Positions 20,826 to 22,059 of a stretch of DNA of 64,000 nt are shown piece after piece. This DNA is from a virus. The translations under genes and the position numbers were made by a program. Location: IMG/VR virus record IMGVR_UViG_3300020429_000529, positions 390,762 to 454,761 of that record; one strand, given 5' to 3'. Under the pieces are notes generated by a model. That model saw only the letters and a list, made by a program, of their open reading frames with translations, was not told the origin of the DNA and did no database searches. Position 1 is the first letter of the stretch. Each line of letters starts with the position of its first letter.

Positions 20826-20853
20826 GGTCGGCGCTTCGGCGTCGGCCCTTTTT
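20826..20853 (+). terminator. rho-independent terminator (9-bp stem, UUCG tetraloop, U5)
   Basis: GGTCGGCGC-TTCG-GCGTCGGCC-CTTTTT. Confidence 0.6.
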
Positions 20854-21131
20854 CATATGAACTGTTCTTCGCCTTCTACCCATACACGAAGCATGTGCCT
20901 GCCGTTACTTGTGAGATAGTAACGATCAATAACGATCTGTCCGTCGTGAACTTTCCGGTGACAGTTCGAGCAGCAACAAACTGAGTTGCCCTTCGTGTAT
21001 CGTCCGCCCTTGGACCCCTCTTCGATCCTGTGTACGTCGAGGAGAGCATAGTCGGTCTCTCCGCAGAACCTACAACAGCCTTCTGCTCGTTTGAACGCCT
21101 GTTTATCGATGAGAGTTTTTGCGCGCGGCAT
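20853..21131 (-). CDS. HNH homing endonuclease
   Basis: CRFCG...HRIEEGSKGG...CCCSNCHRKVH (HNH with Cys4 zinc site). Confidence 0.8.
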   Translation of the reverse strand: MPRAKTLIDKQAFKRAEGCCRFCGETDYALLDVHRIEEGSKGGRYTKGNSVCCCSNCHRKVHDGQIVIDRYYLTSNGRHMLRVWVEGEEQFI

Positions 21132-21227
21132 GACCTTTCATCGGCAATAAAACCAAAAAACTTGATGCGGAAGGAGAATATCCTACCTGACTGTATCTAC
21201 ACATAGAGCATCTAATAGGAGTGTGAT

Positions 21228-21935
21228 ATGGCTACGGTCAAGGTTGATTATTTTCGCGCAATCGATACGCAAATCAAGGCTTACCTGCTCGGCTATCTTA
21301 TGGCCGATGGTTGTCTCTACGACAAGACGGGCACGCCTTTGTTGAGAGTCAGTATGGTTGAGAAGGACAGAGCGATCATGGATTTGCTTGTGTCTGAGAT
21401 CGAGTCAACTTATGCTGTTTCCATTCGCAAGCGCGAAAAAGAACAGTGGCAAGATCAGGTTCAGACAATGATATGCAATTCTGAGTTCAACTCGCATCTT
21501 ATGCGATGGGGAATAACTCCTGGCAAGACATTCGATGGCATGGTGCCCGATGAGATAATTCACAGCGATATGTTTTCTCACTACATGAGGGGCTATTTTG
21601 ATGGTGACGGAACCATTGTAAGGAGCCACTCTTACTACACATATCCATTCGTTTCTCTCTGCGTGAATGATCCCATGACAGAACAACTCATGGACCCTAT
21701 AACGGAAGCACTGGGCAAGTCTCCGTATATCTATCGCAAGCAGTCAATCAACAAGATGAACTTCCAGAAAAGACAGGCAATGACCTTCCTGCATTGGATC
21801 TATCAAGACTCTGAGTTTCACCTGAATCGCAAATATGATCGCTATCAGTTCTTTGTGAAGCATTATGAGAATGGCGGTTCACCAAAGATCGCAAGACCTT
21901 TGAGAACAGCGGAGTGGAACCGTCTCTTTGCGTAG
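21228..21935 (+). CDS. LAGLIDADG homing endonuclease (two-motif, monomeric type)
   Basis: LLGYLMADGCL and YMRGYFDGDGTI. AGGAG RBS. Confidence 0.85.
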   Translation: MATVKVDYFRAIDTQIKAYLLGYLMADGCLYDKTGTPLLRVSMVEKDRAIMDLLVSEIESTYAVSIRKREKEQWQDQVQTMICNSEFNSHLMRWGITPGKTFDGMVPDEIIHSDMFSHYMRGYFDGDGTIVRSHSYYTYPFVSLCVNDPMTEQLMDPITEALGKSPYIYRKQSINKMNFQKRQAMTFLHWIYQDSEFHLNRKYDRYQFFVKHYENGGSPKIARPLRTAEWNRLFA

Positions 21936-21948
21936 CTCTCAAGGCCGA

Positions 21949-22059
21949 TGAACATCTAAGAGAGCATAGTCGGTCTCGCCGCAAAATCGACAACTGCCTT
22001 CTGATCGCTTGAAGGCTTGTTTGTTGATGAGCGTTCGAGGCCGAGGCATATAGGTGTTA
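21949..22059 (-). pseudogene. truncated duplicate of the HNH endonuclease N-terminus (36 codons)
   Basis: Translates to MPRPRTLINKQAFKRSEGSCRFCGETDYALLDVHRP*, about 85% identical to residues 1-34 of the 20853-21131 HNH. At DNA level 21953-22050 matches 21036-21131 at about 75% identity. Confidence 0.6.

What the first reader, a model, noticed from the sequence alone, without database searches (positions are those of the whole stretch)
20853..22059. Homing-endonuclease island with a duplicated HNH 5' end flanking a LAGLIDADG gene
An intact HNH endonuclease (minus, 20853-21131) and a double-motif LAGLIDADG endonuclease (plus, 21228-21935) sit back to back. A 36-codon truncated copy of the HNH N-terminus (MPRPRTLINKQAFKRSEGSCRFCGETDYALLDVHRP*) lies at 21949-22059, forming about 100-bp direct repeats at roughly 75% identity (21036-21131 vs 21953-22050) around the LAGLIDADG cassette. 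This is the footprint of nested homing or recombination, where one endonuclease cassette lands in or beside another. It marks this locus as a hotspot of horizontal exchange.
Basis: seen in the sequence. Interest (0 to 1): 0.6.

Follow-up and report, generated by a model that had tools for sequence, protein, structure and literature searches.

The report
LAGLIDADG cassette beside phage HNH gene
In a roughly 500-kb marine phage, a selfish LAGLIDADG endonuclease gene sits in a swap-prone slot next to a conserved HNH nuclease gene and has left behind a 35-codon stump of a second, diverged HNH allele; this is a clear but essentially ordinary footprint of homing-endonuclease-driven recombination.

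Summary
The stump ORF is at 21939-22049, not 21949-22059. The HNH and LAGLIDADG genes are head-to-head, not back-to-back. The repeat is 101 nt at 78% identity (core 87 nt at 82%, far above shuffles).

The stump is not a decayed local duplicate. The two HNH 5' ends differ almost only at synonymous sites (pS 0.73, pN 0.08), so they come from two functional, diverged alleles. The stump ends exactly after the invariant catalytic LDVHR codons, 9 nt from the LAGLIDADG stop.

In distant relatives one HNH gene directly abuts the NT5C-like gene and there is no LAGLIDADG. That is the empty-site layout, and the stump occupies that position.

A sister strain (97-98% identical flanks) carries an unrelated 317-aa LAGLIDADG in the same slot, has no stump, and has strongly diverged flank patches. 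A third relative has a LAGLIDADG splitting the HNH gene and another LAGLIDADG flanked by duplicated gene ends.

Best reading: a free-standing LAGLIDADG homing cassette in a hot spot, with the stump left by break repair between two related phages (homologous on one side, illegitimate on the other). The closest precedent is fungal mitochondrial mobile ORFs. Which HNH copy is native is unresolved. The HNH looks like a conserved target gene, not a demonstrated homing endonuclease. Interest is moderate to low.

The parts
20822..20853 (+). Strong hairpin plus T-run (intrinsic-terminator-like). It ends the upstream rightward gene and touches the HNH stop codon, marking the left edge of the island.
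   Evidence: -25.1 kcal/mol, z = -6.0 against 200 shuffles, 13-pair stem followed by UUUUU. The consensus scan did not flag it.
20853..21131 (-). Intact 92-aa HNH nuclease gene. It is the only leftward gene in a rightward gene array, and all family-invariant residues are present (C20, C23, H34, R35, N49, C54, C57, H58, H62).
   Evidence: It is 98.9% identical in sister strain L084 and 62-68% identical to single-copy homologues in related huge phages.
21027..21131 (-). Repeat copy R1: codons 1-35 of the intact HNH gene.
21132..21159 (.). 28-nt spacer upstream of the intact HNH, shared with sister strain L084. It contains a degenerate copy (TTCATCGGCAAT, 21137-21148) of the spacer motif TATCGAC found upstream of HNH in all relatives.
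21160..22065 (.). Strain-variable cassette of 906 nt: leader, LAGLIDADG-A, a 9-nt junction, the HNH stump and 16 nt of its upstream spacer. In L084 it is replaced by 1001 nt carrying an unrelated LAGLIDADG-B.
   Evidence: Three independent contigs (L059-L061) break at 21165-21169, and L085 breaks at the position equivalent to 22065.
21228..21935 (+). LAGLIDADG-A, a 235-aa monomeric double-motif LAGLIDADG endonuclease gene. It has its own Shine-Dalgarno (AGGAG, 21217-21221) and in-frame stops upstream.
   Evidence: Family-invariant D27/G28 and D125/G126/D127/G128. AlphaFold2 model pLDDT 88, pTM 0.89, with two alpha-beta-beta-alpha-beta-beta-alpha domains. Foldseek top hits are I-AniI, bI3 maturase, E-DreI, I-HjeMI and I-SceI.
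21936..21944 (.). 9-nt junction between the LAGLIDADG stop codon and the point where HNH homology begins. It is the presumed illegitimate joint.
   Evidence: homology to all HNH genes stops exactly after codon 35 (CGG).
21939..22049 (-). HNH stump R2. The ORF is 36 codons plus a stop; codons 1-35 (21945-22049) are homologous to the HNH 5' end, followed by Pro and a stop. It ends right after the invariant catalytic LDVHR.
22050..22075 (.). Native HNH-NT5C spacer, with the conserved motif (TGTCGATA on the - strand, 22058-22065) and the NT5C Shine-Dalgarno AGGAGG (22065-22070).
22076..22675 (+). NT5C-like 5'(3')-deoxyribonucleotidase gene (TTG start). In related phages it is the divergent neighbour that the HNH gene directly abuts.

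Best explanation
LAGLIDADG-A is a free-standing homing-endonuclease cassette. It sits in a recombination hot spot between a conserved, leftward-reading HNH nuclease gene and the rightward NT5C-like gene of a marine phage of about 500 kb.

The 35-codon HNH stump is not a decayed local duplicate. It is the 5' end of a second HNH allele from a related but clearly diverged phage. It was cut exactly after the catalytic LDVHR codons and left next to the cassette when a double-strand break was repaired between two co-infecting relatives.

Proposed steps:
1. Inferred: the LAGLIDADG enzyme cuts cassette-free relatives in or near the HNH 5' region.
2. Inferred: the broken genome is repaired from the cassette-bearing genome.
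3. Shown by anatomy: on one side the repair was homologous; on the other it was an illegitimate joint 9 nt past the LAGLIDADG stop. This left one intact HNH gene, the cassette, and a displaced HNH 5' stump abutting NT5C.
4. Shown: cassettes in this slot turn over. The sister strain has an unrelated LAGLIDADG with foreign flank patches, and one population variant of LAGLIDADG-A is already inactivated.

My preferred sub-version (about 0.45) is that the stump is the lineage's original HNH start, and that the intact HNH 5' end (or the whole gene) came in with the cassette, as in fungal mitochondrial mobile ORFs. The reverse sub-version (stump imported with the cassette) is nearly as likely.
For: Repeat. 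It is real and significant.

Two alleles, not decay. R1 and R2 have 24 nt differences over codons 1-35, distributed 8/1/15 by codon position. Fourteen codons differ only synonymously and 5 non-synonymously, there are no indels, and the frame is open. Nei-Gojobori gives pS 0.73 and pN 0.08. Simulated neutral decay gives 15.7 amino-acid changes (P of 5 or fewer = 0). If only half the changes were neutral it gives 8.6 (P = 0.014).

Breakpoint. Homology stops exactly after codon 35, the invariant L31-D32-H34-R35 block, 9 nt from the LAGLIDADG stop.

Empty site. In L048, L049, L051, L062-L064, L069 and L070 a single HNH gene starts 16-18 nt from the divergent NT5C start and there is no LAGLIDADG. 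The stump has this position and the conserved spacer motif.

Hot spot. L084 is collinear at 98.5% and 96.8% identity, but window 21160-22065 is replaced by a cassette with a 317-aa LAGLIDADG only 20% identical. Differences between the two strains pile up next to the cassette: 18 in 22066-22132, then almost none; 7 in 21045-21155 against about 1.3% background. With L085 as outgroup, the L084 patch is the foreign one.

Other observations. L081 has a LAGLIDADG that splits the same HNH family on the opposite strand, and another LAGLIDADG (33% identical to A) flanked by a duplicated C-terminus of the neighbouring gene. L068 has a 47-nt deletion between ATGGTTG microhomologies plus a nonsense codon in LAGLIDADG-A. 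The enzyme looks intact.

Precedent. Fungal mitochondrial mobile ORFs carry a foreign gene terminus and leave a displaced native terminus (PMC3630166).
Against: No close relative with an empty site or with a full-length R2-type HNH was found. The empty layout is therefore known only from phages whose HNH is 62-68% and NT5C about 45% identical.

Which HNH copy is native could not be resolved. R1 and R2 are equally distant from all relatives, and codon usage does not separate them.

The cleavage site of LAGLIDADG-A is unknown; placing it at the stump end is inference.

Cassette A shows no foreign tract on its right side in the window. This fits the stump being native, but it also means there is no direct homing signature for cassette A itself; the flank gradient is shown only for cassette B.

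Flanking duplications are not general for this LAGLIDADG family: none was found around 7 other relatives.

L068 has 1.6x coverage, and L081 is a single 3-kb contig.
Confidence: 0.6

Rival explanations
1. The stump is foreign and hitch-hiked with the cassette. In a donor phage LAGLIDADG-A sat inside an HNH gene after codon 35, as LAGLIDADG#2 does in L081. A fragment consisting of leader, LAGLIDADG-A, the donor HNH 5' stump and its spacer was then inserted into the HNH-NT5C spacer of this lineage, whose own HNH (R1 type) stayed intact.
For: The stump lies inside the segment that differs from sister strain L084 (21160-22065). The R1-type HNH is shared by the window and L084, and apparently by the donor of cassette B, because the left patch is only about 5% diverged. 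The arrangement LAGLIDADG-inside-HNH on the opposite strand exists in nature (L081).
Against: The stump is contiguous with a spacer and NT5C 5' end that are native by outgroup comparison. The right-hand joint would therefore have to fall within about 16 nt, with no co-converted tract, whereas cassette B dragged in at least 67 nt. The left joint at about 21160 would also have to be illegitimate. The variable-segment boundary is equally explained by cassette B having replaced A plus the stump.
Confidence: 0.3
2. The HNH 5' end was duplicated in situ in tandem (replication slippage or unequal crossing-over), and the non-functional copy then decayed. The LAGLIDADG gene was inserted between the copies or was already there.
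For: Direct repeats flank the cassette. The perfect 19-nt block GAGAGCATAGTCGGTCTC is shared by both copies.
Against: Divergence is saturated at synonymous sites but low at non-synonymous sites (pS 0.73, pN 0.08). There are no indels or stops in 35 codons. Neutral-decay simulations are rejected (P = 0 to 0.014).
Confidence: 0.04
3. The ancestor carried two full-length tandem HNH paralogues. The LAGLIDADG insertion deleted the 3' two-thirds of the one next to NT5C.
For: It would explain two long-diverged, selection-shaped 5' ends without invoking a second phage.
Against: Every relative examined has a single HNH copy (tblastn). There is no remnant of an HNH 3' end in 21132-21227 or 21936-21944. 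R1 and R2 are each other's closest relatives.
Confidence: 0.05
4. The LAGLIDADG gene is intron-encoded. A group I or group II intron interrupts the HNH gene, and the stump is exon 1.
For: The nearest annotated relatives in Staphylococcus phages (30-35% identity) are labelled intron-encoded endonucleases.
Against: No Rfam family matches 20300-22700 on either strand at E up to 1. Only 96 + 9 nt of non-coding DNA surround the ORF. The ORF is on the strand opposite the HNH gene. The downstream HNH gene has its own complete 5' end. The 5' exon would end in G, not U.
Confidence: 0.01

Closest known systems
Fungal mitochondrial mobile ORF elements (mORFs): Allomyces macrogynus atp6; Glomus sp. atp6, atp9, cox2, nad3 (PMC3630166; also partial cob/atp6 C-terminal duplications next to LAGLIDADG/GIY-YIG ORFs in Endoconidiophora, PMC6279837)
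   Same: A LAGLIDADG (or GIY-YIG) endonuclease ORF is flanked by two diverged copies of a gene terminus. One copy completes an intact gene and the other is a displaced fragment. The divergence between copies is largely synonymous and is attributed to transfer from another lineage. Glomus atp6 copies are 63.5% identical at nucleotide level and 91% at amino-acid level; here the figures are 77-78% and 86%.
   Different: Here the host is a phage, not a mitochondrion. The duplicated end is the 5'/N-terminal end, including the start codon and spacer, not the C-terminus. The endonuclease gene is on the opposite strand and is not fused in frame. The host gene is itself a nuclease. Which copy is foreign could not be shown.
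Free-standing homing endonucleases of T4-like phages (seg and mob genes; 'intronless homing' with co-conversion and marker exclusion).
   Same: It is an intergenic endonuclease gene with its own translation signals. It is present, absent or replaced among close relatives, with locally elevated divergence of flanking genes (shown here for the L084 cassette).
   Different: T4 examples are GIY-YIG or HNH enzymes rather than LAGLIDADG, and they are not described as leaving a 100-nt diverged duplicate of the neighbouring gene's start. Cleavage and homing were not tested here.
Monomeric double-motif LAGLIDADG enzymes (I-AniI, I-SceI, I-HjeMI, E-DreI scaffold) and PHROG 4645 phage endonucleases, including Staphylococcus Kayvirus 'intron-encoded endonucleases'
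   Same: It shares the fold and both catalytic motifs. It matches PHROG 4645 at E = 3e-39 and is 30-35% identical to the Staphylococcus phage proteins.
   Different: It lacks the roughly 95-residue N-terminal extension of most PHROG 4645 members (profile positions 96-305 matched). It is not in an intron. There is no homologue above about 35% identity anywhere searched.
Nuclease genes at boundaries of genetic exchange between phages (ICP1 study, PMC10448857)
   Same: Endonuclease genes sit where synteny and sequence identity between related phages break. Here the window and its distant relatives share the genes to the right of the HNH but not those to the left.
   Different: That study concerns T5orf172 and HNH homing genes in Vibrio phage ICP1. 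It does not describe duplicated gene termini around the homing gene.

Membership tests
LAGLIDADG homing endonuclease (monomeric, double-motif) | Two LAGLIDADG motifs, each with the catalytic acidic residue | tested here: met
   LLGYLMADG (D27, G28) and YMRGYFDGDG (D125, G126, D127, G128) are invariant in alignments of 26-29 homologues.
LAGLIDADG homing endonuclease (monomeric, double-motif) | Two tandem alpha-beta-beta-alpha-beta-beta-alpha domains | tested here: met
   AlphaFold2 model with pLDDT 88.4 and pTM 0.89 has this element order twice. Foldseek PDB top hits are all LAGLIDADG enzymes, E down to 2e-10, TM 0.55-0.62.
LAGLIDADG homing endonuclease (monomeric, double-motif) | Profile match to the family | tested here: met
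   Pfam LAGLIDADG_3 scores 27.7 bits against a cut-off of 22.5. PHROG 4645 E = 3e-39.
LAGLIDADG homing endonuclease (monomeric, double-motif) | Sporadic presence among close relatives (mobility) | tested here: met
   It is absent from all distant relatives with the same neighbourhood, replaced by an unrelated LAGLIDADG in sister strain L084, and a degenerate allele exists in L068.
LAGLIDADG homing endonuclease (monomeric, double-motif) | Site-specific cleavage of the cassette-free allele and copying into it | not testable with these tools
   This needs enzyme assays or co-infection crosses.
HNH nuclease (PF01844, McrA / group II intron En / IscB type) | Beta-beta-alpha-metal motif residues plus two CxxC pairs | tested here: met
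   Pfam HNH scores 26.7 bits against a cut-off of 21.4. C20, C23, H34, N49, C54, C57, H58 and H62 are conserved. The family profile hits McrA-like, maturase En, TasH and IscB HNH domains in the PDB.
   It is only 92 aa, with no extra domain. It is kept in the same neighbourhood across phages with 45% NT5C identity and is under strong purifying selection. However, it occurs in at least three gene contexts, is the only gene on its strand, and is more conserved (62-68%) than its neighbours.
mORF-type terminus replacement (fungal mitochondria) | Endonuclease ORF flanked by two diverged copies of a gene terminus, one completing an intact gene and one displaced | tested here: met
mORF-type terminus replacement (fungal mitochondria) | The copies derive from different lineages (synonymous-dominated divergence) | tested here: met
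   pS 0.73 and pN 0.08; neutral decay is rejected.
mORF-type terminus replacement (fungal mitochondria) | The in-gene copy is the foreign one and the displaced copy is native (shown by phylogeny) | tested here: inconclusive
   The stump adjoins a native spacer and NT5C, but R1 and R2 are equidistant from all relatives and codon usage is uninformative.
mORF-type terminus replacement (fungal mitochondria) | The endonuclease ORF is downstream of, and co-oriented or fused with, the host gene, and the C-terminus is duplicated | tested here: not met
   Here it is the 5' end that is duplicated, and the ORF is on the opposite strand. The L081 LAGLIDADG#1 case does meet this feature.
Group I / group II intron with internal homing gene | Ribozyme core around the ORF | tested here: not met
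   No Rfam match at E up to 1 on either strand. Only 105 nt of non-coding DNA are available.

The most novel reading that the evidence does not exclude
LAGLIDADG homing genes of huge marine phages may spread as 'terminus-replacement' elements, as in fungal mitochondria. The cassette would travel with a cleavage-resistant substitute for the end of its target gene, so that invasion leaves the target functional and strands the old end as a stump. The small conserved HNH gene would be a recurrent landing pad: three different LAGLIDADG genes are found in or next to it in three relatives. This would be the first phage example, and the first involving a 5' end and an antisense endonuclease gene.
Probability: 0.3. 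Interest if true: 0.55.

Novelty: new member of a known kind. Interest (0 to 1): 0.4.

Why it matters
The locus gives a compact natural series for how selfish endonuclease genes remodel phage genomes:
- an empty site in distant relatives;
- a filled site with a stump in the window;
- a replaced cassette with foreign flank patches in the sister strain L084;
- a decaying allele in L068;
- a disrupted HNH gene in L081.

If the terminus-replacement reading is right, a mechanism known from fungal mitochondria also operates in phages. That would also identify the active-site codons of a conserved HNH gene as a LAGLIDADG target, which could be used to look for new meganuclease specificities. Otherwise it is a well-documented but ordinary homing-endonuclease hot spot.

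Tried and rejected
Searches that found nothing useful:
- A close relative with an empty site. Exact-protein look-ups of NT5C, LAGLIDADG-A and the left neighbour gave only the same filled structure.
- HNH homologue searches in the 5.8-billion-protein set, IMG/VR and metagenome contigs gave nothing above 68%.
- Exact and degenerate DNA patterns for the R2 allele found nothing in viral or genome contigs.
- blastn and megablast against INPHARED phages found nothing.
- LAGLIDADG-B has no relatives in IMG/VR.

Tests that were uninformative:
- N-terminal versus C-terminal identity to relatives, to detect a chimeric HNH.
- Codon-usage likelihood of R1 versus R2.
- A shared promoter motif in the leader: the 18-mer is unique in the window, sigma-70 scans were at background level, and the leader does not fold significantly.

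Ideas rejected:
- Terminus duplication is not a general habit of this LAGLIDADG family. There were no flank duplications around L046, L047, L055, L086/87, L089 and L092/94.
- The shorter HNH database entries (P0015, P0027, P0030 and others) are only alternative start calls or contig-edge truncations, not disrupted genes.
- In-situ duplication with decay, assembly artefact and the intron hypothesis were each rejected.
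Full report
**1. What is in the sequence**

Almost all long ORFs in the window are on the + strand, and there are no tRNA genes. The region of interest contains these features:

- A strong hairpin plus T-run at 20822-20853 ends the upstream gene (-25.1 kcal/mol, z = -6).
- A 92-aa HNH ORF follows on the minus strand at 20853-21131 (Pfam HNH, E = 6e-6).
- After a 96-nt spacer comes a 235-aa LAGLIDADG ORF on the plus strand at 21228-21935. It has its own AGGAG ribosome-binding site and in-frame stops upstream.
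- Three nt after its stop codon, a minus-strand ORF of 36 codons ends. This ORF runs 21939-22049 and encodes MPRPRTLINKQAFKRSEGSCRFCGETDYALLDVHRP*.
- Its ATG lies 26 nt from the TTG start of a plus-strand NT5C-like deoxyribonucleotidase gene at 22076-22675.

The HNH and LAGLIDADG genes are head-to-head, not back-to-back.

The repeat is real. 21031-21131 matches 21949-22049 over 101 nt at 78% identity with spacing 918. The ungapped core is 71/87 identical and scores 94 against 15 +/- 2 in shuffles. No other copy of either gene lies in the 64 kb.

**2. Source and reliability**

The same sequence, 100% identical, occurs on independent Tara Oceans contigs from different assemblers. The exact LAGLIDADG protein is on 21 contigs, 11 look-up blocks fall in the 0.2-1 Mb class, and one NCBI WGS contig (MDTD01) is 498,618 nt. 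The organism is therefore a marine huge phage, and the structure is not an assembly artefact. No similar record exists among 50,697 deposited phages.

**3. The stump is a second allele, not a decayed duplicate**

- Over codons 1-35 the two copies differ at 24 nt. The differences fall 8/1/15 by codon position.
- Fourteen codons differ only synonymously and five non-synonymously.
- There are no indels and no internal stop.
- Nei-Gojobori counts give pS = 0.73 (saturated) and pN = 0.08.
- If all 24 changes were neutral, 15.7 amino-acid changes would be expected (P of 5 or fewer = 0 in 20,000 simulations). If only half were neutral, 8.6 would be expected (P = 0.014).

Nearly all the divergence therefore accumulated while both copies were parts of functional HNH genes. 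The truncation is recent relative to that divergence.

**4. Where the stump ends**

In an alignment of 20 homologues, L31, D32, H34 and R35 are invariant. At the DNA level, homology of the stump to every HNH gene stops exactly after codon 35: GATGTTCATCGG | CCTTGAGAG, compared with GATGTTCATCGG | ATAATC in L051, L062 and L069. That point is 9 nt from the LAGLIDADG stop codon. The breakpoint is thus in the most conserved, active-site-coding stretch of the gene. Homing endonucleases typically recognise such stretches; this last point is established knowledge, not a test made here.

**5. The empty site**

Related huge-phage contigs carry one HNH gene, 62-68% identical to the window's. These are L048, L049 and L051 from IMG/VR, L062-L064, and L069 and L070.

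- The HNH ATG lies 16-18 nt from the divergent start of the NT5C homologue (45% identical).
- The spacer contains a conserved TATCGAC motif.
- There is no LAGLIDADG gene.
- As in the window, the HNH is the only gene on its strand.

The stump, not the intact HNH, occupies this ancestral position and carries the conserved motif. The intact gene has a degenerate copy of the motif.

In L050, L071 and L081 the HNH abuts the next gene, a homologue of window 22662-23249. In L052-L054 it lies co-oriented in a different context. Genes to the left of the HNH are not shared with any of these relatives.

**6. A sister strain with a different cassette**

The NT5C cluster representative led to L084, a 502,461-nt ENA contig.

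- L084 matches window 16172-21159 at 98.5% identity and 22066-25265 at 96.8%.
- Window 21160-22065 comprises the leader, LAGLIDADG-A, the 9-nt junction, the stump and 16 nt of spacer.
- In L084 this segment is replaced by 1001 nt encoding a 317-aa LAGLIDADG with a cysteine-rich N-terminus. It is only 20% identical to A, and its 3' end overlaps the NT5C start.
- L084 keeps the intact HNH (98.9% identical) and has no stump.

Differences between the two strains are concentrated at the cassette edges.

- Right flank: 18 differences in 22066-22132 (27%), then 3 in the next 133 nt, 6 in the following 200 nt, and none for the next 400 nt.
- Left flank: 7 differences in 21045-21155, against about 1.3% elsewhere.
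- With L085 (NT5C 88% identical) as outgroup, the window is the unaltered strain in the NT5C 5' end and L084 carries the foreign patch.
- With the stump as outgroup, the window also appears ancestral at 4 of the 5 R1 sites that differ.

These look like co-conversion tracts that arrived with cassette B. Three contigs break at 21165-21169, and L085 breaks at the position equivalent to 22065. Those are the cassette boundaries, as expected if strains with different cassettes co-occur.

**7. Further examples and turnover**

L081 is a 3-kb contig of a related phage.

- It has the HNH start (ATGCCTCGGGCA, preceded by the spacer motif).
- A 249-aa LAGLIDADG follows on the opposite strand.
- Only after that comes the HNH C-terminus, CSNCHRRTHDGQIVIDRYYLST...EEKFV. 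This is an independent LAGLIDADG invasion of the same gene family, and here it destroys the gene.
- Next to it, a 282-aa LAGLIDADG (33% identical to A) is flanked by a full neighbouring gene and by a displaced copy of that gene's C-terminus. The two copies are 36% identical.

L068 is a low-coverage variant of the window locus. It has a 47-nt deletion between ATGGTTG microhomologies (21306-21352) that removes the first LAGLIDADG motif, plus a nonsense change at 21753. This is what a homing gene decaying after fixation would look like. Seven other relatives of the enzyme show no flank duplication.

**8. The two proteins**

LAGLIDADG-A:
- It has both motifs with invariant acidic residues.
- Its structure model is confident (pLDDT 88, pTM 0.89) and has the double alpha-beta-beta-alpha-beta-beta-alpha topology.
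- The model matches I-AniI, bI3 maturase, E-DreI, I-HjeMI and I-SceI.
- It lacks the N-terminal extension of most PHROG 4645 members.
- Apart from its own copies and a partial, it has no homologue above about 35% identity: about 30% in the protein set and 30-35% in Staphylococcus phages.

The HNH is a bare 92-aa beta-beta-alpha-metal domain with two CxxC pairs. It is related to McrA, group II intron En and IscB-type HNH domains. It has no extra DNA-binding module, is kept in the same neighbourhood across very diverged phages, and has dN/dS of about 0.03. I therefore treat it as a conserved target gene. That it is itself a homing endonuclease is unproven.

**9. Mechanism**

The anatomy requires one homologous and one illegitimate joint between two related phage genomes that differed by about 22% in the HNH 5' end.

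Preferred sub-version, about 0.45:
- The lineage originally had an R2-type HNH abutting NT5C.
- LAGLIDADG-A, resident next to an R1-type HNH in a co-infecting relative, cut the R2-type gene at about codon 35/36.
- The left end was repaired by copying the donor's HNH 5' end, spacer and cassette.
- The copied strand was then joined, without homology, to the unresected right end.
- This stranded codons 1-35 next to NT5C. It is the logic of fungal mitochondrial mobile ORFs that bring a foreign gene terminus and displace the native one (PMC3630166; PMC6279837).
- Cassette B later replaced cassette A plus the stump in the L084 line.

Main rival, about 0.3: the stump was imported with the cassette from a donor in which LAGLIDADG-A sat inside an HNH gene, as in L081.

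The data do not decide between these two.

Rejected alternatives:
- In-situ duplication with decay.
- Ancestral tandem paralogues: relatives have a single copy and no 3' remnant is present.
- An intron: no Rfam hit, opposite strand, too little non-coding DNA.

**10. Verdict**

The hot-spot and recombination reading is supported and sharpened, while the labels 'duplication' and 'HNH homing endonuclease' are not supported. The element is a new, distant member of the LAGLIDADG homing endonucleases in a phage hot spot. It shows a terminus-stump footprint that I know only from fungal mitochondria. Interest is moderate: it is a nice natural series, but it lies within known homing-endonuclease biology.

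Noticed in passing
window 19900-20800 (ORFs 19995-20795 + and 19902-20777 -): This segment has 62-69% G+C in a genome of about 50% G+C, lies directly left of the island, and has long ORFs on both strands with no Pfam or PHROG match. Public gene calls take the minus-strand 291-aa ORF. Between the window and L084, however, the plus ORF has 1 amino-acid change and the minus ORF has 5, so the plus-strand 266-aa ORF is probably the real gene. It may be a foreign acquisition.
   Followed up: partly
L068 (ENA ERZ2772585, NODE_60707), equivalent to window 20897-22137: This population variant of the locus has a 47-nt deletion (21306-21352, between ATGGTTG repeats) that removes the first LAGLIDADG motif, a nonsense change at 21753 and a SNP at 21190. 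It looks like a degenerating allele of the homing gene. Coverage is only 1.6x.
   Followed up: partly
L081 1-3074 (JGI Ga0180430_10045310): This related phage fragment carries two LAGLIDADG genes. One (1718-2467, -) replaces roughly codons 5-45 of the HNH gene. The other (247-1095, -) is flanked by a full gene (1080-1619) and a displaced copy of its C-terminus (12-254) that is 36% identical.
   Followed up: yes
L084 4990-6014 (ENA ERZ25074452, 502,461-nt contig): The sister strain carries an unrelated 317-aa LAGLIDADG with a cysteine-rich (zinc-finger-like) N-terminus in the same slot. Its 3' end overlaps the NT5C start, which is ATG there and TTG in the window.
   Followed up: yes
window 25266-26050: This is a second strain-variable region relative to L084. 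The window has two adjacent dCMP-deaminase-like genes (25377-25907 and 25907-26602) where L084 has one. The neighbouring AAA_28 gene is only 88% identical and differs in length (225 vs 239 aa).
   Followed up: no
window 20853-21131: The intact HNH ORF is not called as a gene on any public contig of this phage. It is absent from the 5.8-billion-protein set, where the best hit is 68% identical. Protein-based searches will therefore miss close alleles of it.
   Followed up: partly
window 22076-28000: To the right of the island lies a rightward block of nucleotide-metabolism and DNA-modification genes: an NT5C-like nucleotidase, a nucleoside 2-deoxyribosyltransferase-like protein, a Dam-type N6-adenine methyltransferase, a MazG-like protein, an AAA_28 protein, two dCMP-deaminase-like proteins and a PP-loop ATPase (ATP_bind_3). 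Together they suggest a DNA base-modification pathway.
   Followed up: no
window 21165-21169 and about 22065: Contigs from three assemblies (L059-L061) start at 21165-21169, and L085 ends at the position equivalent to 22065. These are the edges of the strain-variable cassette, which suggests that cassette variants co-occur in the sampled populations.
   Followed up: partly
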